Shown here: piece after piece, positions 6,217-20,687 of the stretch
How the letters are laid out: each line of letters opens with the position of its first letter
Position numbering within the stretch: the first letter of the stretch is position 1
NCBI GenBank assembly: GCA_038884455.1
Contig: JAWABU010000004.1
Coordinates: forward strand, 906-64,905
Source: Thermoplasmatota archaeon
Lineage (GTDB): Archaea; Thermoplasmatota; E2; DHVEG-1
Direction: 5' to 3'
Length of the DNA: 64,000 bases
Made by a program: the position numbers and the translations under genes
The notes under the pieces: generated by a model
What the model was told of the DNA's origin: nothing
The model's database searches: none
The model's input: the letters and a program-made list of their open reading frames with translations, nothing else

Positions 6217-8079
6217 ATGAAAAAAATTGGAGCAATACTCTTAACAGGTTTAGTCCTTATGAGTGGACTTGGTGCTGCTGTATCATTTTCAAAACAACCA
6301 TCAAACATTGTTGAAAATGTCGTTTTTCAAAACATGGTGATTTCTGAAACCGAAACTAATACGATTGTTTCTTTGGATGTATCAAACAGCTGGGTGAAAA
6401 ACCCGGGAAAACCATTACTTCCTATGGTTCAGAAAACATATATTTTTCCGTTTGGTACACAGATTAATAGTGTTGATGTAATATTTGTCAACCCTCAAAT
6501 AATCCAGTTTTCAAAAGAGATTATTCCAGCACCCCTGGCTCAAACAGTGGTTCATGGAAAATTGATTTCTCAACAGCAAGATCAGACAACGAATACTGCT
6601 TTGTATCCTGAAACACCGTTCAGCTATTCTGTCTATGCTGGCATTAAGGGGACAACCCATGTTCTGTTTCTTGTCGTCTACCTGTATCCTATTCGATGTG
6701 ACATCCAAGATAAGATCTTATTTTTTTCAGATGAAGCTGCTCTTCGTATATCATATACGTTACCAGTGCAGCCAGTTTTTACTTCAGATGATTATGATCT
6801 TGTGATTATCGCACCTGAGGTTTTTTCAGAAGCATTGCAACCATTAGTTGAACATAAAAATAGTCATGGTGTTTCAGCGTTTTTGAAGACTGTTGAATCA
6901 ATCTATGCTGAGTATACTGGTGTTGATGAACCTGAACAAATCAAGTATTTTATCAAAGATGCTGTTGAAACCATGGGTGTTGATTATGTGTTGCTTGTCG
7001 GTGGCCAAAAGGGGCAACGGCGATCGTGGTATGTTCCGGTTCGGTATGCAAATCTTGACGATAACTCAGATTTTGAAACTAGTTATGTAAGCGATTTGTA
7101 TTATGCTGATATCTATGATGCCGGTGGTAATTTTTCAAGCTGGGATCCTAATGGGAATGGAATTTTTGCTGAATGGAAAGATGGAACAAAAGAAATCCTT
7201 GATCTTGTTCCTGATGTGTATCTTGGTAGGATTCCCTGTCGTAGTGTGTACTTCGTGAAAATCATGGTTGATAAAATTATCACCTATGAGACGAATGCTG
7301 CTGGAAAATCCTGGTTTAATGATATGGTGGTTGTTGGTGGTGATTCAGCACCTGGAGACCTGTATTATGAGGGTGAAGAGGAAAATAAAAAAGCATTGGA
7401 GTACATGGATTTTTTTAATGGTGTTTCCTGTTGGACATCTGATGAGACATTAACTGGACCGCAAAGTGTTATTGATGCGGTATCTCAGGGTTGTGGTTTT
7501 CTGTTTTTTGATGGTCATGGGAATCCATCAGTGTGGTCAACGCATCCACCTAATAATGAAAGTGTGTGGATTACTGGTTTGAGTAATCGTGATATGCGCA
7601 AGCTTCGAAATGGCGATAAACTCCCGGTTTGTGTTGTTGGCGGGTGTCATAATGCTCAGTTTAATACAAGTTTGATGCGTATCCTTGAAGGTATTAAAAG
7701 TGAGGGTTTTAATTTTTTCAAACGTTCGTTTTATTATAAAGACTGGGTTCCTGAATGTTGGGCTTGGAAAATGGTGCAGGTAAAACGAGGTGGTGCAATT
7801 GCGGTCATGGGATATACTGGTCTTGACTGGTTTGCTACAGGTGATTATACTAGTGATGGCATTCCTGATTGTACCCAGTTTTTTTCAGGGTATGCAAATA
7901 CTCATTTTTTCAAAAACTATGGAGTAAATGATATCACTGTTCTGGGGCAGACACATACACAGACACTTGTTGATTATATCATCGATAACCCGCCGATGAG
8001 TGAACCGCTTGATTGTAAAACAGTTCAAGAATTCGTACTGCTTGGTGATCCAAGTCTTCAGATCGGTGGGTATGTTTAA
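6217..8079 (+). CDS. secreted clan CD cysteine peptidase (gingipain/C25-like)
   Basis: Signal peptide. Putative catalytic dyad FDGHGNP (His) ~45 aa before VCVVGGCHNAQF (Cys), typical clan CD spacing. Paralog of 16731..18620. Confidence 0.65.
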   Translation: MKKIGAILLTGLVLMSGLGAAVSFSKQPSNIVENVVFQNMVISETETNTIVSLDVSNSWVKNPGKPLLPMVQKTYIFPFGTQINSVDVIFVNPQIIQFSKEIIPAPLAQTVVHGKLISQQQDQTTNTALYPETPFSYSVYAGIKGTTHVLFLVVYLYPIRCDIQDKILFFSDEAALRISYTLPVQPVFTSDDYDLVIIAPEVFSEALQPLVEHKNSHGVSAFLKTVESIYAEYTGVDEPEQIKYFIKDAVETMGVDYVLLVGGQKGQRRSWYVPVRYANLDDNSDFETSYVSDLYYADIYDAGGNFSSWDPNGNGIFAEWKDGTKEILDLVPDVYLGRIPCRSVYFVKIMVDKIITYETNAAGKSWFNDMVVVGGDSAPGDLYYEGEEENKKALEYMDFFNGVSCWTSDETLTGPQSVIDAVSQGCGFLFFDGHGNPSVWSTHPPNNESVWITGLSNRDMRKLRNGDKLPVCVVGGCHNAQFNTSLMRILEGIKSEGFNFFKRSFYYKDWVPECWAWKMVQVKRGGAIAVMGYTGLDWFATGDYTSDGIPDCTQFFSGYANTHFFKNYGVNDITVLGQTHTQTLVDYIIDNPPMSEPLDCKTVQEFVLLGDPSLQIGGYV

Positions 8080-8085
8080 AACAGG

Positions 8086-10359
8086 GTGATTGCAATGAAC
8101 AAGAAAATAGTTCCCTTTATTCTTTTCTTTTTGCTTCTTTTTAGTTCTTGTGTTGGTGCAGGTTTTTTTTCGTTGCAGTCGTCAGATCCAACGATGTTAG
8201 TTCGAGTTGATCTGAGCATGCAACAGGTTGTGTTACCTCGGGGTGTGGAAATAGCAAGCATGGTTCCTGAGAGTTATGTTGATATTTTTATCCAACAGAG
8301 CCGTCTTTCAGAACTTCGAGAAAAAACATCAGCATATCGTGTTCTGATTGAAGATGTTGATCTGTATAGTAGTCAGTTTATTGGTCAGTATCACACCCTT
8401 GCACAAATCGAACAAATCCTTGCTGACACGGCTGCAAGCTACCCGTCGATCACCAAATTAACAAGTATTGGATCAACCTATGAGGGTCGAAATATTTATT
8501 GTCTTGAAATTTCTGATAATCCTGGTGTTGATGAAGACGAACCAGGTGTACTCTTTATGGGTTTGCACCATGCACGCGAATGGCCGACGGTTGAGATATG
8601 TTTGTATATTCTCAGTCAGTTAACTTCACAGTATGGAAGTGATTCGATGTTGACAAACCTGGTAGATACTCGTCGTGTTTGGATTGTTCCTTGTGTGAAT
8701 CCTGATGGGTATTACTACTGTCATGATCAGGGTCATGACTGGCGGAAAAACCGGCAGTATTTCTCCCAGTTTGGAACCATAGGTGTTGATCTGAATAGGA
8801 ATTATGATGGTACGTGTAATGGTGAACCTATGGGTGCATGGGGATCTGTGATGAATGGAGCAGCAACGCATTCACCTAATCAAGAAACCTATTGCGGTCC
8901 AGCTGCTTTTTCCGAGTATGAAACCCAAGCTATTAAAAACATGTTTCTAACCAATGATATTTGCGCTTCGATTAGCTGGCATACCTATTCTGAATTGGTT
9001 CTCTGGCCGTGGGGGTATGCAACCAACGAACAGACACCAGATAATACGTATCTGAAACAAGTTGGTCAGGGTATTGCTGCTCGTATCACCAAGCAATCTG
9101 GTTCTGGTACGTATACCCCGCAGCAAAGCGCAGCGTTGTATCCAACCACCGGTGATACTGATGACTGGGCATATGGCTATGCACATTATATTCAGGGAAG
9201 AAATACGTTTGCATATACAATTGAAGCTTGTTCTCAGTTTCAACCACCAGCCTCCAAGCTTGATCAGATATGTGCTGAGAATTTTGATGGTGCACTGTTT
9301 CTTCTAAAGGAAGCTGCAAATATAAGTGCACTGATCCCACGACCATTGCCACCGGTTCTCACTGTACCTTCGAGTGATCCTGATGGGAACTATCTTGTTT
9401 CATGGACTGAGCAGAACCCTTCTGCTGGTGTTGATTGTTTTCAGCTTGATGAACTCAGTCGTTTTCATGTTTTAGTTGATGATGCAGAATCATCAGAGAT
9501 TCAATGGACTTTGATTGGTTTTACCAAAAGTTCAGATCAGATGCATTCCGGTACACAAAGCTACAAAGCCAAGAATCAGAATAATTATGTTTCTTCAATG
9601 ACCAGTAACTATGCAATGCCGGTTACGAGTGGTATGATTTTGTCGTTTTGGACATGGTATAGCATTGAGAATCAATGGGATTATGCGTTTGTTGAGGTGA
9701 GCCGTGATGGGCGGAAGTATGACGTCCTTGATGCGTATACTGGTTCCTCATCAGGTTGGGTGCAGAAACAATATGATCTCAGTAGTTATGCTGATAACTC
9801 GGTTTTTATCAGGTTGCGATATACGACTGATGATGAAACGCTCGGGTCTGGTTTTTATGTTGATGATATCAGCCCGGTTCCAGTGTTTGACCAGAGTGTG
9901 ACGCTTTCTGATACTATTGGGGATACATCATTTGAGGTTTCTGGCAAAGCAAATGGGACGTATTACTATCGTGTCCGAGCTCATAATACTGTTCGTGGGT
10001 GGGGTGACTATAGCATGCTTCAAAAAATACTGGTTGGTAGTGGTGAGGATACCCAGCCGCCCAGTGTTCAGATCATGGTTCCTGCTGAGAAAAAACTGTA
10101 TCTTGGATCAAGGATGTTTCCGTTTTTTGTAACCCTTGTGATTGGGCGTATCACCGTTGAGGTTAGTGCTGTGGATGCATCTGGGATTGATCAGGTTGAG
10201 TTTTATCTAGATGGTATATTTGTTGGAAATGATACCGAGGAACCATATACCTATGCATGGGTGCAGAAAAGCTTTGGGAAACATGTTGTAGCAGTGATTG
10301 CTGTTGATACGTATGCAAATCAGGCTTCACAGGAAATAGCCGTGTGGAAGTTTTTCTGA
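8086..10359 (+). CDS. secreted zinc carboxypeptidase (peptidase M14) with C-terminal Ig-like domains
   Basis: M14 zinc-binding motif GLHHAREWPTVEI (HxxE). Signal peptide with SSC lipobox-like site. Only 6 nt after the upstream clan CD gene. Confidence 0.8.
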   Translation: MIAMNKKIVPFILFFLLLFSSCVGAGFFSLQSSDPTMLVRVDLSMQQVVLPRGVEIASMVPESYVDIFIQQSRLSELREKTSAYRVLIEDVDLYSSQFIGQYHTLAQIEQILADTAASYPSITKLTSIGSTYEGRNIYCLEISDNPGVDEDEPGVLFMGLHHAREWPTVEICLYILSQLTSQYGSDSMLTNLVDTRRVWIVPCVNPDGYYYCHDQGHDWRKNRQYFSQFGTIGVDLNRNYDGTCNGEPMGAWGSVMNGAATHSPNQETYCGPAAFSEYETQAIKNMFLTNDICASISWHTYSELVLWPWGYATNEQTPDNTYLKQVGQGIAARITKQSGSGTYTPQQSAALYPTTGDTDDWAYGYAHYIQGRNTFAYTIEACSQFQPPASKLDQICAENFDGALFLLKEAANISALIPRPLPPVLTVPSSDPDGNYLVSWTEQNPSAGVDCFQLDELSRFHVLVDDAESSEIQWTLIGFTKSSDQMHSGTQSYKAKNQNNYVSSMTSNYAMPVTSGMILSFWTWYSIENQWDYAFVEVSRDGRKYDVLDAYTGSSSGWVQKQYDLSSYADNSVFIRLRYTTDDETLGSGFYVDDISPVPVFDQSVTLSDTIGDTSFEVSGKANGTYYYRVRAHNTVRGWGDYSMLQKILVGSGEDTQPPSVQIMVPAEKKLYLGSRMFPFFVTLVIGRITVEVSAVDASGIDQVEFYLDGIFVGNDTEEPYTYAWVQKSFGKHVVAVIAVDTYANQASQEIAVWKFF

Positions 10360-10444
10360 AACAATCCTTTTTTCTTTTCTTCCATGTTAGTTTTTTCATT
10401 TTATGGTGTTGCAGTTTTTTTGTCGAATGGAGTATTTTTACTGC

Positions 10445-10498
10445 TTTTTCCGTCAAAACGATAAAAAAAACACGTTTTTTGGAATTTTGACGGAAAAA
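10445..10498. promoter_or_regulatory. 14-bp perfect inverted repeat (TTTTTCCGTCAAAA...TTTTGACGGAAAAA) with A/T-tract spacer
   Basis: Read directly from the sequence. Lies between the M14 gene end and the wHTH regulator gene. Could be a terminator hairpin or an operator. Confidence 0.5.
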
Positions 10499-10582
10499 AC
10501 CGTAGTAGGGTTTTATGTTTCTCTGAAATAATATTGTTTTTTATGGGACTACATTTGAAAACGAAACCTTGGAGGAATACCT

Positions 10583-11137
10583 ATGGAAAAAACTGCATAT
10601 ACGCTCTGCAGGATTCAGCAGCAGATTTCTGATTTTTTACGTTGTAATCCTGGTGCGCATTGCCGGGAGGTGTCTCGTAGGTTGAATATTCCGTTTAGTA
10701 CGGTACGATATCATCTGGTACGTCTTGAAAAACAAAACATACTGTATTGTGTTCGTGTTGGGAAGTATGCTCGATATTATGTATCTGGGATGATCGGTGT
10801 TGATGAACGGAGTATTGTGAGTGTGCTTCGGAATGCAACACAAAAGCAGATTATAGAGGTGTTATTAGTGAATGTTGCTGTGTCAAAAGAGGAGGTAGGT
10901 AATTGTTTGCGGAGGCATCCGACGACAATTATGTTTCATTTGAACCAGCTGCTTGAACGTGATATTATAACAACCCAGGGTTGTTCTGATGCTTTGGTTG
11001 GATCAAAAGAAAACCTGGGTTGTAGTTGTCAGACGAGTTCGAGAGCAAAGTTTAAACGGTATCGGTTAAAAAAACCTGATCTGGTAGCTCAAGTTATGCA
11101 GAAATATGCAGCAGATACTTGCTTAGGAGCTAAATAG
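10583..11137 (+). CDS. transcriptional regulator with two winged-helix (ArsR/MarR-like) domains
   Basis: Two wHTH-like segments (REVSRRLNIPFSTVRYHLVRLEKQNILY...; QIIEVLL...EEVGNCLRRHPTTIMFHLNQLLERDII). Confidence 0.6.
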   Translation: MEKTAYTLCRIQQQISDFLRCNPGAHCREVSRRLNIPFSTVRYHLVRLEKQNILYCVRVGKYARYYVSGMIGVDERSIVSVLRNATQKQIIEVLLVNVAVSKEEVGNCLRRHPTTIMFHLNQLLERDIITTQGCSDALVGSKENLGCSCQTSSRAKFKRYRLKKPDLVAQVMQKYAADTCLGAK

Positions 11138-11386
11138 TATCATGGTTGAATCTGGTTAATCGTCTTTATCGAATCGTATTTGAAATAAACTACGTATCAC
11201 CTCCTCTTCGAACGATATCTAATTTTGATTTATGATATTTTATCCAAAAATAATAGCTTGTTACTTATTTTTTTATACACAAAAAACAGCTAAAAAAGGA
11301 TGATTGATCTATAAAGTATAAATATTTGGATGATACTATGTTTTTTAAAGGCTTGATAAACTCAAGCAGAGAATGGAGGAAAAGAT

Positions 11387-12811
11387 TTGATGAAGAAAAT
11401 GAAAGGAAAAGATTTTTGTATCGGGGCTGTTGTTCTTATGGTACTACTTGCAATAGCACCCTCGATAAATGCTCATGGAATAAGTAATAAACTACCTGAT
11501 GGTGGAAACGGACCTTTTACAAAATATACTCAACCTCAACCACAAGCGGATGATGACGATAATTCCGTTTACGAAGTAGTTTGGGAAGATACTTATTATG
11601 GTGCGGGGATGGTACTTGATGTTGCAAGCGATTTTGATAATAATTATATTGTTGTTGGTGTCACTCATTCATTTGAGGGAGCAGTTGTAAAATATAACGG
11701 CGTCACTGGTGAAGTCATTTGGGATAATATTATTTCTGATTCAGTGATGTTACCATTTTATGAAGGAGAAACCTATCAACCAACTTCAGATATCAGCAGA
11801 TTCTATTGTATACGAAATCTTATGTTAGATGTTCACCAGCAACGATATGATTTTTCTCTCGACCCGACTGGAGCTTATTTTATACTAATTACAGGGGTTG
11901 ACATCTTTTCGAATGGAGATGTAGTTATTGTAGCTACAGCAATTGACAATACGAATGATAATGATCCATCTGATGTATATATTGCAAAATATAGTGGATT
12001 AACAGGAGAAGTGATATGGGAGAGGCTACTTGATTTATATGTTTGGGATTTTGGATATTCGGTAGCTGTGACAAGTAATGATAATGTGATTGTTGTTGGT
12101 GTCAGTGGGGGTTATGAAACCCATAATGGTCAATTACTCCCAATCATGGATGGATGGGTATACAAACTTGATGGAGATAATGAAGGTTGTACTCTTGATC
12201 AGAGTCATATTTTTGGGATTACCCAACCACTACCATACTATTTTGATGTTGCACTCGATTCAAATAATAATGTTTTTGCCACCGGTGCTTGTCTTATTAT
12301 TGATTGGAGTAATTTTCCAGAGATCACCGATGTGCAGACGGTTGTTGTGAATAGATATAGTGGAACTACTCTTAATTTACAGAAGTCATATTACGGGAAT
12401 CCAGCAATTTTCACATGGCTATGCACGATTACTATTGACACAGAAAATAAAATCTACGTTGGAGGACATATTAACAACCCTACTACAAACCGATATATAA
12501 TGAAGTTCACAAATAATTTAAACACAAGTTTATGGACCTTGCAAAACGTTCCAGGGGAAGTTGTATGTCTTGCAGCATCAAAAAATCCCAATGTTGATGA
12601 AATAGCTGCACAAATAGGAGGTAATGGTTTTATCACTGATCGTTTCACCTTCGCCGGGGCGTTTATCGCACCTGAAATCATTGAGCATTTAAATGAGGGA
12701 TGTGGAATGGCAATTGTTTATGACGGAAATAATGATATGGTCGTAACAGGGTCCATTGAAGGAGGTTGGGATGTATACATGCATACGATGAAGTACCACA
12801 TTTTCCGGTAA
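11387..12811 (+). CDS. secreted repeat protein (beta-propeller-like repeats)
   Basis: Signal peptide with GGAGG RBS. Repeated VVGV...GEVIW blocks. Confidence 0.55.
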   Translation: MMKKMKGKDFCIGAVVLMVLLAIAPSINAHGISNKLPDGGNGPFTKYTQPQPQADDDDNSVYEVVWEDTYYGAGMVLDVASDFDNNYIVVGVTHSFEGAVVKYNGVTGEVIWDNIISDSVMLPFYEGETYQPTSDISRFYCIRNLMLDVHQQRYDFSLDPTGAYFILITGVDIFSNGDVVIVATAIDNTNDNDPSDVYIAKYSGLTGEVIWERLLDLYVWDFGYSVAVTSNDNVIVVGVSGGYETHNGQLLPIMDGWVYKLDGDNEGCTLDQSHIFGITQPLPYYFDVALDSNNNVFATGACLIIDWSNFPEITDVQTVVVNRYSGTTLNLQKSYYGNPAIFTWLCTITIDTENKIYVGGHINNPTTNRYIMKFTNNLNTSLWTLQNVPGEVVCLAASKNPNVDEIAAQIGGNGFITDRFTFAGAFIAPEIIEHLNEGCGMAIVYDGNNDMVVTGSIEGGWDVYMHTMKYHIFR

Positions 12812-12943
12812 TAAAAATCAGTAAGAAGTATATCTCCCAAGGGAATCTTTTGGGAGAATCTTCAGCTTTCATATAATTTGTTAAGTTAATAAGGATATTT
12901 AATAGAAAATTTAATATAATATAATAAATATAATAATAAAGTA

Positions 12944-14014
12944 TTGCGGGGAAATGAAAATATGTTTAAAAAAAATATTATACCTCTTTTAATGATTAGT
13001 TTCTTATTTTTAACAACAACTATTTTTTTTGCATCTACAGTTCAATCAATTATTAAAAATGAGAAAATAATATCTGAACCACGAACGATCTACGTTGACG
13101 ATGATAACCATGCAGGTCCTTGGGATGGTACTCCTGAGCATCCATATGAGACAATAACACAAGCATATAACGTTGCTATCTCGGGAGATACAATCTTTTG
13201 TTTCTCTGGTGTTTACGGAATCAGGGACCAGCGTGATTGTTATATGATAATAAATAAATCAATCAACCTTATCGGTGAGAATAGAAGTAATACATATCTT
13301 TTTAAGAGAATTGGACCGGAATTCTATTACCTAATCGTCATTGATAATGTCAATATTTCTGGCTTTCATTTTACTGTCCATAGCTCATGTCATGTTATGA
13401 CGAAAATTTTTGTGAATGCTTCTGATCATTGCACTGTGACGAATAATGATTTTCAAGATGATTTTACGATGGTTGGGGCAACAGCAATCATAAAAATAAT
13501 TGACTCGGAAGACATCATAATTTCAGACAATATCATAGGTCGACCGAATCCACCGGTGAACATTATTGGTACTCAAGGAATCATTCTAGAAAATTCAAGC
13601 AATATACAAATTTACAATAATTGTATCGATGAATATTTTTACGGAATTGTAGGCAAGCATCTTACCAAGAGCAATATTACAAACAATCAGTTGTACACGC
13701 TTGGTGGGCTGCAACTTGTTGCATCATCTCATAATATAATTTCAAATAATGTCATTGAAAATGGTATTAATGGATATGGAATATATTTACTTAGATCCTC
13801 TGATAATTCTATTATCCAAAACAATTTTATAACTAATAGAATCAGAATTAGAAAAGCATTATTTTCTGATTGTACGAATACCTGGGATCAGAATTACTGG
13901 GGTAGGGCACGATTGCTTCCAAAAATAATTTTTGGTGAAAAAACCGTGAACAACAAAATAGTACCTGCATTTCAGATTGACTATCATCCTGCAAGAGACC
14001 CCATCTCGCTTTAA
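12944..14014 (+). CDS. right-handed parallel beta-helix repeat protein (NosD/pectate-lyase-fold like), membrane anchored
   Basis: N-terminal TM/signal. Repeated I/V-x-N-N blocks (ISDNIIG, IYNNCID, ITNNQLY, ISNNVIEN). Very AT-rich relative to its neighbours. Confidence 0.6.
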   Translation: MRGNENMFKKNIIPLLMISFLFLTTTIFFASTVQSIIKNEKIISEPRTIYVDDDNHAGPWDGTPEHPYETITQAYNVAISGDTIFCFSGVYGIRDQRDCYMIINKSINLIGENRSNTYLFKRIGPEFYYLIVIDNVNISGFHFTVHSSCHVMTKIFVNASDHCTVTNNDFQDDFTMVGATAIIKIIDSEDIIISDNIIGRPNPPVNIIGTQGIILENSSNIQIYNNCIDEYFYGIVGKHLTKSNITNNQLYTLGGLQLVASSHNIISNNVIENGINGYGIYLLRSSDNSIIQNNFITNRIRIRKALFSDCTNTWDQNYWGRARLLPKIIFGEKTVNNKIVPAFQIDYHPARDPISL

Positions 14015-14104
14015 ATAACTATACAACAAAAACGGCTTTGGTTCATAATTAATATCTAAGAATCGCATATCCTCCTGCGCGAGGGATGGGTATGCGAAAA
14101 ACAA

Positions 14105-14760
14105 ATTGGAAAATCTACGAGAAAGCAGAGGAGGAAGAATTCCGACTCTTCCTTGAAATTGGCAAAAAATTATCTGGGATCAACAACCACCACAATACTG
14201 GAGAACAAAGAAAAAGAGACCAGGAAGACCACCGGCATACGATTGGAAAGGATTGGTGATCCTCCTGCTCTTGAAGATGTTTTACCGATTGAAATTCCGA
14301 GAGATCACTTCATTTGCTAAAGGGTTTCCTGGTCTTCGAGAACTCTTAGAACTCAAGAAAACACCAAGCAGATCAACCCTCAACGGACCATGAAGAAATT
14401 GGATAAAGCTTGGTTACGAACAGTGAACGATGCCATTATTGCTGAGTTTAAAAAAAGCGGAAACACATCGGTATTGATTACAGCGGAGAAACAGTTAATC
14501 ACTACTCACCGTGGTACTGCTTAAGAACTAAGAAGAAAACCAGAAAACGCGATTTCAAAAAGATCCATGTCGCAATGGAAATTAAAGGCCCTGAAAAACC
14601 TATCTACTCCATCGAAGTGACTAAAGCAACACGACATGATTCTTCTCTTCTGATTCCGTTACTTGACCGGATCACTGGAAAGATCGGGGATGTCTGCGGT
14701 GATAAAGGACTCTCATCACGACGCAATGCACAATACATCCCGAGTTTCGCACGTGAATAA
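14105..14760 (+). pseudogene. IS5-family transposase, N-terminal part, multiple frameshifts
   Basis: Conserved IS5 motifs are spread over three reading frames. Only a 61-codon ORF (14575..14760) is intact. Confidence 0.6.
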
Positions 14761-14802
14761 AAGTTAAGTGCCTTCAGTGTTTGTATTTTTATTGGTGCAA
14801 AA

Positions 14803-16311
14803 ATGCAAACTGTACTGAAGACACCAAACCACATAAAGCTCAACAAGAATAAGACCTTTCCGATAGGAACAATCCAAACCGTCAAAACCATTTTCGAAAA
14901 ACTTCATCTTTCCCAACTCCTTGATGATCTCAAACACTGCGGCTATAGGCTCAGCGGACTCTCTACTGGGCTGGTCTCCTACAAAATGACCGAGAATTTC
15001 TCAATCAGCAGATGTCATCAATGGATGACATCCAATCCAATGCTTCTGGAATACCTCCAATTGTCTGCTTTTGAGGATGATGCCTTGTACCGTGGCCTTG
15101 CAATCCTTGGAGAGAATAAACACGTGATCCTCAGTCACCTTTTACACGTCCTCAAAGAAGAATACGGTGTGGGACTGGATATGGTGTTCATGGATTGGAG
15201 CACCGTGTACTTCGAAGCCAAACCAACAGAGTACATCAAATATGGACATACTCGTGATCATCGACCTGACAGGCCGTAGGTCGCCATAGGACTGGCACAA
15301 GACCAAGGAACTCAACTCCCTGTTGGACTGACCATTCAACCTGGGAACATAAACGATCAAAAACACTTCAAAGTCACTTACCAAAAGATCAAACCAGGAC
15401 TCAGAACTGGGAGTGTCCTGGTTTTTGATGCCGGTGTCACTGGCATCCCAAACTTCGATCTCCTTGGTTCGGACAAAATGAGGTATCTCTCCCGGATGAA
15501 ACTCAACACAAGCGACATTAAACACCATCTGAACACATTCAACAAGGAGGAATGGACACCTGTTGTCACCGGCAACAGGGACGAAGAGGTCTATGGGAAA
15601 CAGCTGGTGTTCCCCAGCAGGACCAAATACCTGTACTTCTCCCAGAACCTCTACGATAACACCATGAAAAACAGGAGAAAGCACCTGGAACAAGAGTACG
15701 ACGAAGCGCTAGACCTGCGGAAAACCATACAACAAGGGAAACGACCACGGAAGAAATACCGCAACAGCAACCACTTCCTGCAAACACACCTGTCCTACAC
15801 CTTCCCCCTCACCGGCCTCTCTCGTGAGCAGGCGATAGAGCGTGCATTACAGCTTTCCATTACCGGGAAAGAAGGATTTTTTGCACTCGTATCAAGCAAA
15901 GATTTCTCACTTCACGAAGCACTCCAATACTACCGTGAAAAGGATGGTGTGGAGAAGCTGTTCAACAGCATCAAAAATGAGCTTCATGTGCGACCTACAC
16001 GCTGCTGGACACAGGAGGCGATCGACGGATCCATCCTCATCGTCTACCTTGCTCAACTCGTCATAAGTTTACTCCGCTACAAACATGACAAGCTGCGTCA
16101 TCTTTCAACAAAATTCATCATGCAAAGCCTGAGCAATTTCGCACTTACCATCGTTGTGGGTAAAAATGGGGTGAAAAACCGTGTTTTTTCCAATTTTGAC
16201 TGGATCAATACCCTGGTTTTTTTTGTGGAAAAACACCAGGATCGTAGGTTTTTCAGCCTGTTTGGCTGGCTGAAAACGAGAAAATTGTGTCATGTGCGAA
16301 ATGTGTTCTAA
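14803..16311 (+). pseudogene. IS1634/IS4-like DDE transposase interrupted by a single in-frame TAG at 15277
   Basis: ORFs 14803..15279 and 15478..16311 are in the same frame. The sequence reads through as ..GHTRDHRPDRP*VAIGLAQDQ.. and the DHRPD motif resembles the IS1634 signature. Confidence 0.6.
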
Positions 16312-16312
16312 T

Positions 16313-16623
16313 CAATAAAAGATCAATCACCTGCGAAAGTCAGGATACATCGCCAAACGAGGCGGTACACCCTCCTCATGATGAAAAAGAACAGCATCAG
16401 CAAAAGCAAAGGATGCCCCGCCTGGCACAAGATGCACAAATCCCGAGAAAAGGACGAAAAAGCTTGGGACAAACATTATCACAAACGCTCCAATAGCGAA
16501 GCAGGATTCGGCTCATTCAAACAACAAACCAACTCCTATCTTTCCAGTAGAAACCGGGAAATGTCAAACCAACGAAATATGGCTAAAAACAATAGGATAC
16601 AACATACGACAATTGATCCATAG
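16313..16623 (+). pseudogene. IS5-family transposase C-terminal fragment
   Basis: ..RIHRQTRRY..KGCPAWHKMH..YHKRSNSEAGFGSFKQ.. matches the IS5 C-terminal region that carries the catalytic Glu. Confidence 0.5.
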
Positions 16624-16730
16624 AAAAATACGACTGGAGGTCACAAGAGGTGAATTATGAACCAAGGCCAAAAGCTCAAAAACATTTATATAGTGCACAG
16701 CTATAAATTAATTACGGGGATAGTTTACGT

Positions 16731-18620
16731 ATGAAGAATACAAAAACGTTGATGATCGTCAGTATGCTTCTTTGGAGTGGTTTTGGAGCTAGTATCATCC
16801 AAGCAACAAATAATCAAACCTATGAAACAATGCAGGTTGTTGTATCGTTTTCTCAGCCGATAGTTACCAATGGAAACGATGGGCTGTCGGTTTCTCTTGC
16901 TGAGGCAACATCTGTCTTAAATACACCTGGCGGGTATATGCTTCCTCAGGTTACCAAAGTTTTTAGTTTTCCGTTTCGCACACAAATCATTGGTATAGAC
17001 GTGGTTTTTTCCGATATAACAACACAACTACTACCACAAGAACCTGCTCGTGCAACTCAACCAGTCTCTGATCTTGGTTTTTCAGCACATATTGAAGAAA
17101 TAGATCTCTCAACATATACACTGTATCCTGAAAATCAGTATAGTTATTCACTTGCAACAGGTCGTCAGGGTGACAGTATCGTACTTTTTATTGTTGTACG
17201 GTTAACTCCTGTTCAGTTCAACCAGAAAGACATGCTGCTTACAACTGCAAAAACCGCTGATATTACCATTACTTATAGAGTACCAGAACATCCAACCATA
17301 CTTGCTGATACCTATGATTTACTTATCATTACTCCTGATGATTTTGCTGCTGCAGTAGAACCCTTGGTTGTTCATAAGAATGCGATGGGGGTTCAGACAA
17401 AACTGGTTACCCGATCTGAGATCTGCGCTGGAACCTATTTCCCTGCGCAGGGTCGTGATTGTGCTGAGGAGATGAAATATTTCATTAAATCTGCATTGGA
17501 ATCCTGGGGAATAAAATATGTTCTTTTGGTTGGCGGCCGGAAAGGAGGCGTTATGCAGGAGAAATGGTGGATGCCGGTTCGCTATTCAAATCTTGATGAT
17601 TCCTCTGGTTTTGAGGCAAGTTATCTGTCTGATTTGTATTTCGCTGATATCTATGATGCCTATGGAAATTTCTCAAGCTGGGATACAAATGAAAACGGTG
17701 TTTTTGCTGAATGGAAAGGTGCTACCAGGGATATTCTTGATATGTATCCTGATGTGTTTGTCGGTCGTCTTGCGTGTTTGAATACCCGTGAGGTGAAGCT
17801 TATGGTTGATAAGATTATTACCTATGAGACTGAAACATATGGGTCTGCATGGTTTAAGCGTTTTATTGGCGTTGCTGGTGATACCTATCCTGGGCCAACA
17901 GATCCGTATTATGAAGGGGAACGTGCGAATGAAGCTGCGTTTAATCTGCTTGAAAGTTCTGGTTTTACCGCAACTATGGTATGGACATCCAATGGTATAT
18001 TTACTGGAAAAAAGCCGGTGATTGATGCGTATAGTAAGGGTGCTGGTTTTGTGCATTTTTCAGGGCATGGTAATCCGAATGCATGGGGTAATCACCCACC
18101 GCATAATGATACGTTTATTAACGGACCGACGTCCTTTGAGATGGGGAAATTAAAGAATAAAGAAATGCAGCCGATTGTGATTGTTGGCGGATGTCACAAT
18201 GCTCAGTTTAATACAAGTTTGTTGAATATTGTAAAAGGTGTACTTACTGATGGCCTTCAGTATTTTAGTACAAAGTCTCCACTGGGAAAATACTGGTATC
18301 GGGAATGGGTTCCCCGATGTTGGGCTTGGGCGATGGCTGCACAGAAAAACGGCGGGTGTATTGCGATTATGGCAAATACTGGTCTTGGGTATGGACAACC
18401 TGGTGAGAATTGCTTAACGATGCGTGGGCGGTTCCTTGAAGTCTTATTTTTCCGGAGTTACAGTGAGGGAAAAACAGTACTTGGTGAAACTCATGGGCAA
18501 GATATGATCTATTACATGCATGAATATCCTCCGATGAGCAATGTGATTGATTGTAAGATTGTTCAGCAGTGGGCATTGCTTGGTGATCCAAGTCTTCAGA
18601 TTGGAGGATATCCAAATTAG
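16731..18620 (+). CDS. secreted clan CD cysteine peptidase (gingipain/C25-like), paralog of 6217..8079
   Basis: Signal peptide. FSGHGNPNAWGNH (His) and IVIVGGCHNAQFNTSL (Cys). Long stretches near-identical to the 620-aa paralog (VLLVGG.KG...VPVRY.NLDD...). TATAAATTA box at ~16703. Confidence 0.65.
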   Translation: MKNTKTLMIVSMLLWSGFGASIIQATNNQTYETMQVVVSFSQPIVTNGNDGLSVSLAEATSVLNTPGGYMLPQVTKVFSFPFRTQIIGIDVVFSDITTQLLPQEPARATQPVSDLGFSAHIEEIDLSTYTLYPENQYSYSLATGRQGDSIVLFIVVRLTPVQFNQKDMLLTTAKTADITITYRVPEHPTILADTYDLLIITPDDFAAAVEPLVVHKNAMGVQTKLVTRSEICAGTYFPAQGRDCAEEMKYFIKSALESWGIKYVLLVGGRKGGVMQEKWWMPVRYSNLDDSSGFEASYLSDLYFADIYDAYGNFSSWDTNENGVFAEWKGATRDILDMYPDVFVGRLACLNTREVKLMVDKIITYETETYGSAWFKRFIGVAGDTYPGPTDPYYEGERANEAAFNLLESSGFTATMVWTSNGIFTGKKPVIDAYSKGAGFVHFSGHGNPNAWGNHPPHNDTFINGPTSFEMGKLKNKEMQPIVIVGGCHNAQFNTSLLNIVKGVLTDGLQYFSTKSPLGKYWYREWVPRCWAWAMAAQKNGGCIAIMANTGLGYGQPGENCLTMRGRFLEVLFFRSYSEGKTVLGETHGQDMIYYMHEYPPMSNVIDCKIVQQWALLGDPSLQIGGYPN

Positions 18621-18679
18621 TCGGTTTTTCGTTTATAGACAATTAGTCAGGTGATGCAATGATATTTTAAGGTGCCTCT

Positions 18680-19969
18680 ATGAACCATGGCGCATATTTT
18701 GGAGTGATGCTTTGTTGTTTTCTATGCATCGGTGTTATCCAACAGCCGTATTATGTTCAATCCGCTGGTGCAACTAGTTCTGATCAAACAGAAGATATTC
18801 TTGAGATGATCAGTCAGGTTGATGAAGGACTTGTGCAAAACTATGTTACAAAGCTTTGTGCGTTTCGACCACGGTATACTGGAACTACGCTGTGTACTCT
18901 TGCAGCTCAGTATCTATTTGATGAGTTGAGTTCTATGGGTCTTGAAACTAGTTTTCATGAGTGGTTCTATAAGGGTTTTAGAAGTAGGAATGTGGTTGCA
19001 ACACTTCCTGGTACTGATCCAGAGAGTACTGCTGTTTTTATTATCTGCGGGCATTATGATACTGTGGAAGTATCACCAGGTGCTGATGATGATGCGTCTG
19101 GTGTTGCATCGGTGCTTGCCTGTGCTCGTATTATGAGTCAGTATTCTTTTCCTCATACGATACGTTTTATTGCTTTTTCTGGTGAAGAGGTTGGAACACT
19201 GGGGAGTTTTTCGTATGCACGTGATGCGTATCGGCAGGAAGACAATATTGTTGCAGTATTAAATCTTGATATGGTTGGATATGCAAACAGTGCTGAGGGT
19301 GGAAGCACTCTTCGGTTTTTTCCAGCACCGCGAGCACGGTGGATAGCAGATTTTGCAGAAAGCATCAGTGAAAAATACAAGGATATCATTGATATGAATG
19401 TTGAGATTCTTCCATGTTATATTGGTTCTGATGCGCAGCCTTTTATTGATTATGGGTATGATGGTGTATGGATTGCGCATCATGATGGGTATTCCTGGGG
19501 CCATTCAGCAGATGATGTTCCTGAGCATTTGAATTACACGTATCATGCAAAAGCAACTCGTTTTATGCTTGCGGTGCTTGCTGAGTTTGCGATTAAACCC
19601 CTACCGGTTCAGGTGATTATTAAAACACCGTTGGAAGGGTATGGGTATTTTTTTGATCGACCTACGATAAAACTTGATCTTGGTAAACAGTGGTATAAAG
19701 GCCTCCGGGGGATCACGATTGCCATCGGTCGTCCTGTTGTTCGGGTTGATGTTCTGAGCAGTGAACCGATTAAGTATGTTGTTTTTTGTGTTGATGGGAA
19801 TTTTATGTATTGGGATAGTCAAGCGCCGTTTGAATGGAAACTAGGAGGTTTGCATTATCCACTGGTTGGTCGACATACACTTCAGGTCTATGCGTATACA
19901 ACTGAGGGAAACAGTGCTGTAGATGAGATGCAAATTATTATACTCACATTTTCATGTCAGTATTCATAA
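18680..19969 (+). CDS. secreted M28 family aminopeptidase with C-terminal Ig-like module
   Basis: Signal peptide. M28 metal-site motifs HYDTV...GADDDASGVA...FSGEEVG. AAGGTG RBS. Confidence 0.8.
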   Translation: MNHGAYFGVMLCCFLCIGVIQQPYYVQSAGATSSDQTEDILEMISQVDEGLVQNYVTKLCAFRPRYTGTTLCTLAAQYLFDELSSMGLETSFHEWFYKGFRSRNVVATLPGTDPESTAVFIICGHYDTVEVSPGADDDASGVASVLACARIMSQYSFPHTIRFIAFSGEEVGTLGSFSYARDAYRQEDNIVAVLNLDMVGYANSAEGGSTLRFFPAPRARWIADFAESISEKYKDIIDMNVEILPCYIGSDAQPFIDYGYDGVWIAHHDGYSWGHSADDVPEHLNYTYHAKATRFMLAVLAEFAIKPLPVQVIIKTPLEGYGYFFDRPTIKLDLGKQWYKGLRGITIAIGRPVVRVDVLSSEPIKYVVFCVDGNFMYWDSQAPFEWKLGGLHYPLVGRHTLQVYAYTTEGNSAVDEMQIIILTFSCQYS

Positions 19970-19976
19970 AAGAACA

Positions 19977-20687
19977 ATGATACGTATGGCAAAAAGTATT
20001 GGTTTCCTTGCTGTTTTTCTGGTGACTTGTTCGTTTGCTTCATCGTATCATGTGGTATGTACAAATGAACTGATTATTTTTCCCTCTTCACCGGTTGTGC
20101 TGGTTACCGGTTTTGAGCCTTTTGCTGATTTTGATATTAATCCGTCGCAGATAATCGTTGAGGAACTCCAGAATCAAACAGTTCATGGTCTGCAGGTTGT
20201 TGGGGTGGTATTGCCAGTTAATTTTACTTCTGCTGATATGATACTTGTTCAGGTACTCCAGCACTATCAACCGTTTCTCATGATCAGTCTTGGTTTGTCA
20301 CCCAAGGCAACTACTCTTGAAGTTGAGACATGGGCTGTGAATATGAAACGATATCCGCTTGATTCAGGAAGGTGGTCGTTTCCTCGAAAAATAGAGCAGG
20401 ATGGTCCTTTGCTTCGTTTATCATCCCTCAATACCCGTGCGGTTATTCGGGAGTTGAAAAATCATGATATCCCATCGGAGCAGAGTTTTTTTGCTGGTAC
20501 GTATCTCTGTAATTATGTATTTTACCGAGCACAAAGCATTGTGAAAACAATGGATCTTTCTACTCATGTTGGTTTTATACATGTCCCCCTCCTTGATGTG
20601 CAAAGTCAACACGGTATGAAACTTCAAACTATGGTTGATGGCGTGAAAGTAGTCATTGGTTTGTACTCTACTTCAAACAGCATATGA
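19977..20687 (+). CDS. pcp: pyroglutamyl peptidase I (C15) with N-terminal signal/anchor
   Basis: VLVTGFEPFADFDINPSQ core and a conserved C-terminal region. N-terminus MIRMAKSIGFLAVFLVTCSFASS is hydrophobic. Start chosen downstream of the M28 stop. Confidence 0.75.
   Translation: MIRMAKSIGFLAVFLVTCSFASSYHVVCTNELIIFPSSPVVLVTGFEPFADFDINPSQIIVEELQNQTVHGLQVVGVVLPVNFTSADMILVQVLQHYQPFLMISLGLSPKATTLEVETWAVNMKRYPLDSGRWSFPRKIEQDGPLLRLSSLNTRAVIRELKNHDIPSEQSFFAGTYLCNYVFYRAQSIVKTMDLSTHVGFIHVPLLDVQSQHGMKLQTMVDGVKVVIGLYSTSNSI

What the first reader, a model, noticed from the sequence alone, without database searches (positions are those of the whole stretch)
6217..20687. Duplicated endo+exopeptidase module: clan CD endopeptidase followed by exopeptidases, twice
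6217..8079 and 16731..18620 are near-identical paralogs (long identical stretches such as VLLVGG.KG...VPVRY.NLDD...LMVDKIITYET). The first is followed 6 nt later by an M14 carboxypeptidase. The second is followed 60 nt later by an M28 aminopeptidase and then a pyroglutamyl peptidase whose start abuts the M28 stop. This suggests operons coupling an endopeptidase to C-terminal or N-terminal trimming, including removal of blocked pyroGlu N-termini. It would be a modular processive extracellular proteolysis system.
Basis: partly seen in the sequence, partly recalled or inferred. Interest (0 to 1): 0.65.

Follow-up and report, generated by a model that had tools for sequence, protein, structure and literature searches.

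The report
Conserved secreted peptidase gene array, Thermoplasmatota
This stretch of an uncultured sediment-type archaeon (Thermoplasmatota) carries a conserved row of secreted protein-cutting enzymes: two old gingipain-like paralogues, one followed by a carboxypeptidase and the other by an aminopeptidase plus a secreted pyroglutamyl peptidase. The enzyme families are already known from these archaea, so this is a tidy but fairly ordinary example.

Summary
6217..8079 and 16731..18620 are full-length C25 (gingipain, clan CD) paralogues with the His/Cys dyad intact. They are followed by M14, and by M28 then C15. They are not near-identical: identity is 44%.

The window matches a Candidatus Thermoplasmatota MAG. 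In about 15-20 other species-level Thermoplasmatota genomes the same genes form one compact co-directional array: C1 papain, an unknown secreted protein, C25-A, M14, C25-B, M28, C15, a small membrane protein, then a convergent PAS-HTH regulator and a second M28. In this window a 6.4 kb lineage-specific insert, including an IS element, splits the array.

Only C25-A/M14 looks operon-like, with gaps of -4 to 36 nt in 15 loci. Conserved oligo-T tracts and TATA-like boxes precede C25-B and M28. Only the endopeptidase is duplicated, not a whole module.

All the peptidases carry signal peptides, including the normally cytosolic pyroglutamyl peptidase. An endo-plus-exo division of labour on extracellular protein is plausible but untested.

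Extracellular C25, M14, M28 and C1 genes in Thermoprofundales/MBG-D archaea are well documented. The conserved array and the secreted C15 clade are modest additions.

The parts
809..1561 (-). Conserved divergent left neighbour (250 aa, no Pfam). It marks the left edge of the syntenic locus.
   Evidence: tblastn finds it immediately upstream of the array in 13 loci at 52-68% identity. No Pfam match.
3144..5015 (+). Secreted papain-family (C1) cysteine peptidase with a ~300 aa C-terminal extension. It is the first gene of the conserved array.
   Evidence: Pfam Peptidase_C1 E 2e-49. Signal-peptide-like N-terminus and the CGSC / NHMV / NSWG catalytic motifs are visible in the sequence. Orthologues sit upstream of C25-A in L002-L006, L010 and L022.
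5286..6146 (+). Secreted all-beta protein of unknown function. It is annotated from ATG 5385 (253 aa); the probable true start is CTG 5286 (286 aa).
   Evidence: An in-frame signal peptide (KYIPGLFGIGVVLLSAIASA) lies upstream of 5385, with GGGGGAT 5 nt before CTG 5286. Orthologues are 286-294 aa with signal peptides. The family has about 100 clusters; every source name shown is a Thermoplasmatota archaeon, and none has a Pfam domain. AF2 pLDDT is 92.5 and there is no significant PDB fold match. It sits before C25-A in L001, L005, L013, L015 and L081.
6217..8079 (+). C25-A: gingipain-like clan CD cysteine endopeptidase precursor, made of signal peptide, prodomain and catalytic domain.
   Evidence: Pfam C25 E 6e-61. 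His434/Cys477 align with RgpB His211/Cys244. The AF2 model (pLDDT 84) matches the RgpB and Kgp catalytic domains (E 4.5e-18, 3e-16). Its N-terminal domain separately matches the RgpB and Kgp prodomains (E 5e-8, 8e-7).
8095..10359 (+). Secreted M14 zinc carboxypeptidase (carboxypeptidase-T-like) with InhA-like MAM and Big_7 domains. It is tightly coupled to C25-A.
   Evidence: Pfam M14 E 1e-73, MAM E 6e-18, Big_7 E 3e-12. The best PDB match is carboxypeptidase T, 1obr, E 9e-56. The gap to C25-A is -4 to 36 nt in 15 loci. A T-rich tract follows its stop.
10360..16730 (.). Lineage-specific 6.4 kb insert that splits the array. It holds an HTH regulator (10583..11137), a secreted unknown (11387..12811), a secreted NosD/beta-helix protein (12944..14014) and an IS element (14034..16669).
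   Evidence: The insert is absent from the closest relative L081 (176 nt gap) and from L003, L004 and L009 (~90 nt). The inverted repeats 14034-14057 / 16646-16669 are 24 nt and 83% complementary. There is a weak DDE_Tnp_1 match (E 4e-4, below the Pfam cut-off).
16685..16692 (+). TATA-like box (TTTATATA) about 40 nt upstream of C25-B, followed by GGGGAT. It is the putative promoter and ribosome-binding site of C25-B.
   Evidence: It is conserved in position and sequence in L003, L004, L009 and L081. In the window it lies 15 nt downstream of the IS right end.
16731..18620 (+). C25-B: second gingipain-like endopeptidase precursor and an old paralogue of C25-A.
   Evidence: Pfam C25 E 2e-51. It is 44% identical to C25-A over its full length. 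Its orthologues form a clade that is sister to the A clade in an NJ tree.
18680..19969 (+). Secreted M28 aminopeptidase (M28a) with a ~130 aa C-terminal beta domain.
   Evidence: Pfam M28 E 3e-37. The best PDB match is Vibrio/Aeromonas leucyl aminopeptidase 1amp, E 7e-19, with the GH.D, GADDDASG, EEVG and LDM metal-ligand motifs aligned. It follows C25-B in 9-10 loci.
19977..20687 (+). Secreted pyroglutamyl peptidase I (C15).
   Evidence: Pfam C15 E 1e-35. The best PDB match is Thermococcus litoralis PCP 1a2z, E 1e-29, with the Glu/Cys/His motifs (VETWAVN, GTYLCNY, GFIHVP) aligned. At least 111 of the 120 nearest homologues carry an N-terminal signal peptide. It follows M28a in 9 loci.
20723..20989 (+). 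Small membrane protein (88 aa, 3-4 predicted TM segments) conserved after C15. Its function is unknown.
   Evidence: Hydropathy is. Orthologues share the LLEWV.VFDLKTN motif in L003, L007, L010, L019, L023 and L024. No Pfam match.
21033..21941 (-). HTH plus two PAS domains: a candidate regulator, convergent with the array.
   Evidence: Pfam PAS_4 E 7e-21; the HTH_11 match is weak, E 5e-4 and below the Pfam cut-off. It holds the same position in L003, L010, L019, L023 and L081.
23539..24864 (+). Second secreted M28 peptidase (M28b) with a Big_7 domain, at the right end of the conserved locus.
   Evidence: Pfam M28 E 3e-33. It is conserved in L003, L010, L019, L023 and L081.

Best explanation
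This is a vertically inherited chromosomal locus of a Thermoplasmatota archaeon. The conserved array occurs in MAGs that the literature assigns to Thermoprofundales/MBG-D.

It encodes a set of Sec-exported peptidases:
- a papain-like C1 enzyme;
- two anciently duplicated gingipain-like C25 endopeptidase zymogens;
- a carboxypeptidase-T-like M14;
- two M28 aminopeptidases;
- a signal-peptide-bearing pyroglutamyl peptidase I.

Proposed mechanism:
1. The C25 and C1 endopeptidases cut extracellular protein into peptides, after their prodomains are removed.
2. The M14 enzyme, co-transcribed with C25-A, trims the new C-termini.
3. The M28 enzyme trims N-termini.
4. The secreted C15 enzyme removes pyroglutamate caps, which form spontaneously from N-terminal Gln/Glu and would otherwise block the aminopeptidase.

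Shown here: gene content, catalytic residues, the gingipain prodomain-plus-catalytic fold (on a predicted model), signal-peptide-like N-termini, conserved gene order, and conserved intergenic motifs.

Inferred only: export itself, substrate specificities, sequential co-operation, and the nutritional purpose.
For: - Families and active sites.
- Fold: the C25-A model matches RgpB/Kgp catalytic domains and, separately, their prodomains.
- Export signals sit on all seven peptidases and on orthologues. At least 111 of 120 nearest C15 homologues have a classic n/h/c signal peptide directly before the catalytic domain. Solved PGP-I structures align from residue 2-6 in 19 of 21 entries and so show no such extension.
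- Synteny: the order C1-(unknown)-C25A-M14-C25B-M28-C15-orf88 / PAS-HTH / M28b recurs in L003, L004, L005, L007, L009, L010, L019, L023, L039 and L081.
- C25A is followed by M14 in 17 of 20 other loci that have enough downstream DNA. The gap is -4 to 36 nt in all 15 loci (window included) where both ORFs are complete.
- The A and B clades are sisters, and each keeps its own neighbour.
- The flanks (o250, NFACT) are conserved and the rest of the window is housekeeping genes, so the locus is chromosomal.
- Acidic residues invariant in the 58-sequence alignment (D376, E387) align with RgpB Glu152 and the S1 residue Asp163. This is compatible with Arg/Lys specificity.
- The M14 keeps the equivalent of CPT Asp260. 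CPT removes hydrophobic and, less efficiently, basic C-terminal residues (PMC6937156).
- Literature: exported C25, M14, M28 and C1 genes are abundant and transcribed in Thermoprofundales. M11B2D_scaffold_792_1, which is the C25-A orthologue on L011, reached TPM 23,848 (PMC6461988). Gingipain-type substrates are hydrolysed quickly in such sediments (PMC6752024).
Against: - No activity, export or transcript data exist for this locus.
- Conserved oligo-T tracts plus TATA-like boxes lie between M14 and C25-B and between C25-B and M28. This argues for several transcripts, so 'coupling' beyond C25-A/M14 is neighbourhood, not operon.
- The alignment that places E387 on RgpB Asp163 has only moderate posterior probability.
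- S1' residues of CPT-like enzymes are poor predictors of specificity (PMC6937156). The extra Asp at the CPT Thr262 position occurs in this window only.
- No peptide uptake system is encoded in the 64 kb window.
- In a 13C-protein SIP study, Thermoprofundales did not incorporate label despite encoding such peptidases (PMC9123169).
- Signal peptides were judged by hydropathy and motif inspection, not by a trained predictor.
Confidence: 0.6

Rival explanations
1. A co-located or co-regulated secretome island without pairwise functional coupling. On this view the peptidases act independently on whatever substrates they meet. They cluster only because secreted-hydrolase genes share regulation, for example by the adjacent PAS-HTH protein, or share evolutionary history.
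For: - Conserved terminator-like T-tracts and TATA-like boxes lie before C25-B and before M28a, and TATA-like motifs lie before C15 and orf88.
- The array also holds a C1 peptidase and a second M28 that do not fit an endo/exo pairing.
- The M14/C25-B junction tolerates unrelated inserts: BNR protein, IS elements, a transporter, and HTH/NosD genes.
Against: - The C25-A/M14 junction is -4 to 36 nt with only an SD-like motif. This holds in 15 loci whose proteins have diverged to 47-60% identity, which suggests selection for co-transcription.
- The order M28 then C15 is kept in all 9 loci that extend far enough.
Confidence: 0.25
2. The C25 paralogues are dedicated maturases or processing enzymes rather than bulk-protein degraders. 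They would activate the neighbouring zymogens or process cell-envelope proteins, as the C25 member PorU does. The locus would then serve envelope or secretome maturation.
For: - PorU is detected as a distant structural and sequence relative.
- The M14 has a ~70 aa segment between signal peptide and catalytic domain whose pattern (...YRVLIEDVDL) recalls M14 activation peptides. This comes from my reading; there is no Pfam support.
- The SIP study found no protein-carbon assimilation by Thermoprofundales (PMC9123169).
Against: - The proteins are far closer to RgpB and Kgp than to PorU (E 2e-18 vs 1e-3; fold E 4.5e-18 vs 4e-7).
- There is no Arg/Lys in the window's M14 pro/mature linker (LYSSQFIGQYHT), where an Arg/Lys-specific activator would have to cut.
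- Published counts give 6-15 predicted extracellular C25 genes per Thermoprofundales MAG, with very high transcript levels (PMC6461988). That fits bulk hydrolysis better.
Confidence: 0.1
3. An artefact: an assembly duplication or chimeric contig produces a false 'twice' pattern.
For: The window comes from a metagenome-assembled genome. An IS element lies between the two halves.
Against: - The paralogues are only 44% identical.
- The same two-paralogue order occurs in independent assemblies from many studies.
- Flanking synteny is conserved.
Confidence: 0.02

Closest known systems
Gingipains RgpB and Kgp of Porphyromonas gingivalis (MEROPS C25, clan CD)
   Same: - Signal peptide, then N-terminal prodomain, then caspase-like catalytic domain.
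- The His/Cys dyad and the Glu152-equivalent acidic residue are conserved.
- The fold matches both the catalytic domain and the prodomain.
   Different: - Only 15-19% identity in the structural alignment.
- No T9SS C-terminal domain.
- The region after the catalytic core is predicted helical rather than the Ig-like domain.
- The host is an archaeon using Sec-type export.
- P1 specificity is untested.
Extracellular peptidase repertoire of Thermoprofundales/MBG-D and other sediment archaea (Lloyd et al. 2013, cited from memory and via PMC6461988, PMC9585477 and PMC6752024)
   Same: - Same organism group and the same families: C25, C1A, M14 and M28 predicted to be exported.
- The loci found here include MAGs used in those papers: SM1-50 is L007, and M11B2D is L011, L033 and L070.
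- The C25-A orthologue of M11B2D is among the most highly transcribed genes there.
   Different: - In the passages I searched, those papers count families per genome and do not describe the conserved gene order, the A/B paralogue split or the intergenic elements.
- One extracellular C15 appears only as a count for SM1-50 in a supplementary table.
Carboxypeptidase T of Thermoactinomyces vulgaris (M14A)
   Same: - It is the best solved relative of the M14 catalytic domain (E 9e-56).
- The HxxE / H zinc ligands, Tyr255 and the Asp260 equivalent are all present.
   Different: - The archaeal enzyme carries extra MAM-like and Ig-like domains.
- The window's copy has Asp at the CPT Thr262 / CPB Asp255 position; orthologues have I, T, V, L or C there.
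Pyroglutamyl peptidase I of Thermococcus and Pyrococcus (C15)
   Same: The catalytic domain and the Glu-Cys-His triad motifs are shared (E 1e-29).
   Different: - The solved enzymes begin directly with the catalytic domain.
- This clade has a Sec-type signal peptide and sits in a secreted-peptidase array.
Vibrio/Aeromonas proteolytica leucyl aminopeptidase (M28)
   Same: It is a secreted di-zinc aminopeptidase, and the metal-ligand motifs align.
   Different: - There is an extra ~130 aa C-terminal beta domain.
- Specificity is unknown.

Membership tests
MEROPS C25 / gingipain family (clan CD) | Significant match to the family profile over the catalytic domain. | tested here: met
   PF01364 matches at E 6e-61 (residues 196-615) and 2e-51 (198-623), covering profile positions 2-373 of 374.
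MEROPS C25 / gingipain family (clan CD) | Catalytic His (in a His-Gly motif) followed by catalytic Cys, in clan CD order. | tested here: met
   H434-G435 (FDGHGNP) and C477 (VGGCHNAQF) align with RgpB H211 and C244. Both are invariant in the 58-sequence alignment and conserved in 85 of 86 locus ORFs.
MEROPS C25 / gingipain family (clan CD) | Caspase-like alpha/beta catalytic fold plus an N-terminal inhibitory prodomain. | tested here: met
   The AF2 model (pLDDT 84.1) matches 4ief_D and 1cvr (E ~5e-18, TM 0.65 on the target) and 6i9a. The prodomain chains 4ief_A/C/E/G match at E ~5e-8, and 5mun at E 8e-7 and 1e-6. This rests on a predicted model, not an experimental one.
MEROPS C25 / gingipain family (clan CD) | Arg- or Lys-specific endopeptidase activity. 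| not testable with these tools
   There is only an alignment hint: invariant E387 aligns with RgpB Asp163 at moderate posterior probability.
MEROPS C25 / gingipain family (clan CD) | T9SS C-terminal sorting domain (a feature of the Bacteroidota gingipains, not of the peptidase family as such). | tested here: not met
   The proteins end at ...GDPSLQIGGY directly after the C25 profile. No further domain is found.
M14 metallocarboxypeptidase, CPT-like | HxxE...H zinc ligands, a catalytic Glu and a Tyr248/255 equivalent, with a profile match. | tested here: met
   PF00246 matches at E 1e-73. LHHAREW, SWHTYSE, LY and TIEAC align with CPT.
M28 aminopeptidase | Co-catalytic zinc ligands (H, D, E, D, H) and a profile match. 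| tested here: met
   PF04389 matches at E 3e-37. GHYD, GADDDASG, GEEVG and LNLDM align with 1amp. The last His lies outside the printed alignment. Whether the enzyme is an aminopeptidase or a carboxypeptidase was not tested.
C15 pyroglutamyl peptidase I | Glu-Cys-His triad and a profile match. | tested here: met
   PF01470 matches at E 1e-35. The triad motifs align with 1a2z.
C15 pyroglutamyl peptidase I | Cytosolic location, with no export signal (the usual description of PGP-I; from general knowledge). | tested here: not met
   A signal-peptide-like N-terminus is present here and in at least 111 of 120 nearest homologues. This was judged by hydropathy and motif only.
Operon (single transcription unit) joining endopeptidase and exopeptidase | Same strand, with an intergenic gap too short for a promoter or terminator, conserved across genomes. 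| tested here: met
   This holds for C25-A/M14 only: gaps are -4 to 36 nt in 15 loci. No transcript data were available.
Operon (single transcription unit) joining endopeptidase and exopeptidase | The same criterion applied to C25-B/M28. | tested here: inconclusive
   Gaps are mostly 59-106 nt (17 nt in L004, where an upstream start was called). They hold a conserved oligo-T tract and a conserved AAATATTTATATAAT element. That suggests a separate promoter, although read-through is possible.

The most novel reading that the evidence does not exclude
The locus is a hard-wired extracellular proteolysis cascade specific to one clade of sediment Thermoplasmatota. After an ancient tandem duplication, one gingipain-like paralogue became transcriptionally fused to a C-terminal trimmer. 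The other became fixed next to an N-terminal trimmer plus a secreted pyroglutamyl peptidase, a location not usually described for this enzyme. The secreted C15 enzyme would then be an adaptation to aged, N-terminally cyclised detrital peptides. That would give a directly testable enzymatic explanation for how slow-growing subsurface archaea use degraded protein.
Probability: 0.3. Interest if true: 0.5.

Novelty: new member of a known kind. Interest (0 to 1): 0.3.

Why it matters
Extracellular peptidases of benthic archaea are thought to control part of the breakdown of buried organic nitrogen and carbon. Their real substrates and co-operation remain unknown, and a SIP study has questioned whether Thermoprofundales catabolise protein at all.

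A conserved array gives a defined, small set of genes to express together: C25-A with M14, and C25-B with M28 and a secreted pGlu-peptidase. It also yields a concrete prediction, namely pGlu-AMC hydrolysis in sediment porewater and synergy on pGlu-blocked peptides.

Beyond that, the families, their export and their abundance in these archaea are already established. The finding refines existing knowledge rather than changing it.

Tried and rejected
- Near-identity or recent duplication: rejected. Identity is 44%, and the A and B clades are sisters that predate the species splits.
- tRNA and Rfam scans of the window found nothing.
- Pfam prodomain models (Propeptide_C25, Propep_M14) on the N-terminal segments gave no hits at E<=1. 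The C25 prodomain was recovered only by fold comparison.
- A carboxypeptidase-B-like (basic) specificity for M14, inferred from Asp at the CPT Thr262 / CPB Asp255 position, was dropped as a general claim. The residue is unique to this window, and CPT S1' swaps do not transfer specificity (PMC6937156).
- The unknown secreted protein 5286..6146 gave a confident all-beta model but no PDB match. The best hit had E 8e-3 and TM 0.33, to generic beta-barrels.
- Co-expression from Zhou et al. supplementary tables: only the C25-A orthologue of M11B2D is listed, not its neighbour.
- Lloyd et al. 2013 could not be read.
- Literature searches for a description of this gene order, or of secreted archaeal PGP-I, found none. 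The library is incomplete, so prior description cannot be excluded.
- The bacterial sigma-70 promoter / intrinsic-terminator scan was not used, because the organism is an archaeon. Intergenic motifs were compared across orthologous loci instead.
- A plasmid location, as reported for some Thermoprofundales C25 genes (PMC9585477), is unlikely here. The flanks are housekeeping genes and are syntenic.


Full report
**Observation**

- 6217..8079 (620 aa) and 16731..18620 (629 aa) align end to end (BLASTP 523 bits, E=0), but at 44% identity and 62% similarity. They are not 'near-identical'.
- Both match Pfam Peptidase_C25 across the whole profile (E 6e-61 and 2e-51).
- The downstream genes are as described. 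An M14 carboxypeptidase with MAM-like and Big_7 domains starts 6 nt after C25-A (GTG 8086) or 15 nt after (ATG 8095). An M28 peptidase starts 59 nt after C25-B.
- A C15 pyroglutamyl peptidase follows. Its longest ORF overlaps M28, but its likely start (ATG 19977, MIRMAKS...) is 7 nt past the M28 stop.
His434 and Cys477 of C25-A align with the catalytic His211 and Cys244 of gingipain RgpB. They are conserved in 85 of 86 related ORFs and invariant in a 58-sequence alignment.

**Organism and wider locus**

- C25-A is 100% identical to a protein annotated 'C25 family cysteine peptidase [Candidatus Thermoplasmatota archaeon]'.
- The rest of the window is archaeal housekeeping: NFACT, Pelota-like, topoisomerase, purine synthesis, PcrB, an STT3/AglB oligosaccharyltransferase, geranylgeranyl reductase and aminoacyl-tRNA synthetase. 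No tRNA or Rfam match was found.
- The finding's coordinates are too narrow. The same neighbourhood also holds a secreted papain-family C1 peptidase (3144..5015), an unknown secreted protein (5385..6146 as annotated) and a small membrane protein (20723..20989).
- It further holds a convergent HTH-PAS-PAS protein (21033..21941), a second M28 with Big_7 (23539..24864) and an MG2/PKD protein.

**Comparative evidence**

A scan of one genome per GTDB species returned 586 C25 relatives. The best 80 loci are all Thermoplasmatota-type MAGs. tblastn and ORF-level BLASTP of the window's proteins against these loci, plus the closest relative L081 (75% identity), show one recurring co-directional array:

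o250(-) | C1 - (unknown secreted) - C25-A - M14 - C25-B - M28a - C15 - orf88 | PAS-HTH(-) - unknown(-) - M28b - ... NFACT.

- C25-A orthologues are followed by M14 in 17 of 20 other loci with enough downstream DNA. L008, L019 and L020 are the exceptions.
- C25-B orthologues are followed by M28a in about 9 of 11. C15 follows M28a in all 9 loci that extend far enough.
- The gap between M14 and C25-B is only about 90 nt in L003, L004 and L009, and 176 nt in L081.
- In this window that gap is 6.37 kb (10360..16730). It holds an HTH gene, a secreted unknown, a NosD-like beta-helix protein and an IS element bounded by 24-nt inverted repeats at 14034-14057 and 16646-16669.
- Other lineages carry different inserts at the same junction: a BNR-repeat protein in L005 and L007, an rve-integrase IS in L005, and a transporter plus Usp in L001.
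- So the 'two modules' are ancestrally one array, and the separation seen here is secondary.
- More distant C25 paralogues (L026-L080, about 40% identity) lack these neighbours.
- An NJ tree of 86 C25 ORFs places the M14-linked (A) and M28-linked (B) genes as sister clades inside a large Thermoplasmatota C25 radiation (no bootstrap).
- Only the endopeptidase was duplicated, long ago. The exopeptidases belong to unrelated families.

**Transcription units (inferred from sequence)**

- The C25-A/M14 gap is -4 to 36 nt in 15 loci, window included. It contains only an SD-like GGAGG/GGTG motif. This pair is very likely co-transcribed.
- After M14 there is a conserved oligo-T tract. It is followed, about 40 nt before C25-B, by a conserved TTTATATA box and GGGGAT. 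In the window this promoter-like element survives 15 nt downstream of the IS end.
- The C25-B/M28a spacer likewise has an oligo-T tract and a strongly conserved AAATATTTATATAAT element.
- M28a/C15/orf88 gaps are 10-48 nt or overlapping.
- The most economical map is therefore [C1], [(unknown)-C25-A-M14], [C25-B], [M28a-C15-(orf88)]. No transcript data were available. One C25-A orthologue (M11B2D_scaffold_792_1, which is L011) is among the most highly transcribed genes in a mangrove sediment (TPM 23,848; PMC6461988).

**The proteins**

- C25-A: an AlphaFold model (58-sequence alignment, pLDDT 84) matches the RgpB and Kgp catalytic domains (E 4.5e-18 and 3e-16). Its N-terminal about 170 residues independently match the RgpB and Kgp prodomains (E ~5e-8 and 8e-7). 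These are gingipain-type zymogens.
- They lack the T9SS C-terminal domain, and the part after the catalytic core is predicted helical.
- In the profile alignment, invariant D376 and E387 fall on RgpB Glu152 and the S1 residue Asp163. This hints at basic-P1 specificity, but alignment confidence there is only moderate.
- M14: closest to carboxypeptidase T (1obr, E 9e-56). Tyr255 and Asp260 equivalents are conserved in all orthologues. CPT removes hydrophobic and, less well, basic residues (PMC6937156).
- The window's M14 uniquely has Asp at the CPT Thr262 / CPB Asp255 position. Because that paper reports that S1' swaps do not transfer specificity, I draw no conclusion from it.
- M28a aligns with secreted Vibrio/Aeromonas leucyl aminopeptidase, with the metal ligands in place.
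- C15 aligns with Thermococcus and Pyrococcus PGP-I, with the triad motifs intact.

**Export**

- All seven peptidases begin with a basic n-region followed by a hydrophobic segment, and so do their orthologues.
- At least 111 of the 120 nearest C15 homologue clusters have such a signal peptide immediately before the VVLVTGFEPF start of the catalytic domain. Most of the remainder failed only my motif search or are truncated.
- Nineteen of the 21 solved PGP-I chains align from residue 2-6 and so lack any extension.
- A supplementary table of PMC6461988 counts one 'extracellular' C15 in SM1-50, which is L007. The feature has therefore been tabulated, but I found no discussion of it.
- Signal peptides were judged by hydropathy and inspection only.

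**Interpretation**

The best-supported reading is a vertically inherited locus for exported peptidases with an endo/exo division of labour:
1. The C25 and C1 endopeptidases generate peptides.
2. M14, co-transcribed with C25-A, trims C-termini.
3. M28 trims N-termini.
4. The secreted C15 removes pyroglutamate caps that would block M28.

The last step is inference from enzyme chemistry. N-terminal Gln/Glu cyclise spontaneously, which matters in slowly turning-over detritus.

Caveats:
- There is no biochemical evidence.
- There are probably several transcripts.
- No peptide transporter is encoded in the window.
- Thermoprofundales did not assimilate 13C from protein in one SIP study, whose authors warn that exported peptidase genes do not prove protein catabolism (PMC9123169).

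Rivals:
- An uncoupled secretome island or regulon (0.25).
- A maturase or processing role for the C25 enzymes (0.1).
- Assembly artefact (effectively excluded).

**Comparison with what is known, and novelty**

- Exported C25, C1A, M14 and M28 genes are a documented hallmark of Thermoprofundales/MBG-D and other sediment archaea (PMC6461988, PMC9585477, PMC6752024; Lloyd et al. 2013 as cited there, which I could not read).
- The NCBI record already names the protein a C25 peptidase.
- I did not find the following described or 43: the conserved gene order, the A/B paralogue split with fixed partners, the conserved intergenic elements, and the breadth of the signal-peptide-bearing C15 clade.
- These are incremental. 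I rate the finding as a new member of a known kind, interest about 0.3.

**Side observations**

- The unknown secreted protein probably starts at CTG 5286. It belongs to a family of about 100 clusters; all named members are Thermoplasmatota and none has a Pfam domain.
- It has a confident all-beta model with no solved structural relative.
- A conserved 88-aa membrane protein follows C15.

Noticed in passing
window 14034..16669: A probable IS element is bounded by 24-nt imperfect inverted repeats (GGCTTTGGTTCATAATTAATATCT / ...GAATTATGAACCAAGGCC). It has fragmented ORFs, one of which weakly matches DDE_Tnp_1 (15478..16311, E 4e-4, below the Pfam cut-off). G+C is higher (0.445) and GC skew is reversed. 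It sits 15 nt upstream of the conserved TATA-like box of C25-B. No clear target-site duplication was seen.
   Followed up: partly
window 5259..5387: The unknown secreted protein is annotated from ATG 5385, but an in-frame signal peptide lies upstream. The only plausible start is CTG 5286, preceded by GGGGGAT. Orthologues are 286-294 aa with ATG starts. This could be a rare CTG start, a mutated start codon or a sequencing error.
   Followed up: partly
window 5385..6146 and homologues P0121-P0223: A family of ~286-aa secreted proteins, about 100 clusters in all. Every source name shown is a Thermoplasmatota archaeon, and none has a Pfam domain. It often sits directly upstream of C25-A. The AF2 model is confident (pLDDT 92.5) and all-beta with long antiparallel strands. 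There is no significant PDB match (best E 8e-3, TM 0.33).
   Followed up: partly
window 19977..20687; P0224-P0343: A whole clade of pyroglutamyl peptidase I homologues carries Sec-type signal peptides (at least 111 of 120 nearest clusters). This contrasts with the extension-less solved archaeal and bacterial enzymes.
   Followed up: yes
window 20723..20989: An 88-aa protein with 3-4 predicted membrane segments and a conserved LLEWV.VFDLKTN motif always follows C15 in related loci. It has no family assignment and its function is unknown.
   Followed up: partly
window 809..1561 (-): A 250-aa hydrophilic protein without Pfam match is the conserved divergent left neighbour of the peptidase array in 13 loci. 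In this window an ABC-2 type transporter pair (1514..3042) lies between it and C1; its ATPase ORF as listed overlaps the o250 start by 48 nt on the opposite strand.
   Followed up: no
L005 12811..16030; L007 14529..16229; L001 14234..18283: The M14/C25-B junction is a variable spot. It holds a secreted BNR-repeat protein in L005 and L007, an HTH+rve integrase (IS) in L005, and a Na/sulfate-symporter-family transporter, a Usp protein and a secreted unknown in L001.
   Followed up: partly
window 8095..10359, motif QQSAALYPTTGDTDDW: The window's M14 has Asp at the position equivalent to CPT Thr262 / CPB Asp255. Orthologues in 14 other loci have I, T, V, L or C there. This may be a lineage-specific shift towards basic C-terminal residues, but the literature warns that such predictions are unreliable.
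   Followed up: partly
window 3144..5015, 23539..24864, 24788..25966 (C-termini): Several secreted proteins of the locus end in short aromatic/basic tails (…GFSFLRFLFQYRLMKQ; …RFINLLLKK; …FRSMFFWFLKSRFPRFFG). I did not test whether these are a sorting or anchoring signal.
   Followed up: no
window 44853..49136 (-): A 1427-aa protein combines an STT3/AglB oligosaccharyltransferase N-terminal domain with C-terminal CarboxypepD_reg / prealbumin-like repeats. This is an unusually long architecture for an archaeal AglB.
   Followed up: no
window 10439..10504: A 30-nt inverted repeat with flanking A/T runs (80% complementary, 6-nt loop) lies downstream of M14 and upstream of the inserted HTH gene. 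One half also recurs at 81% identity inside the IS (16174..16200).
   Followed up: no
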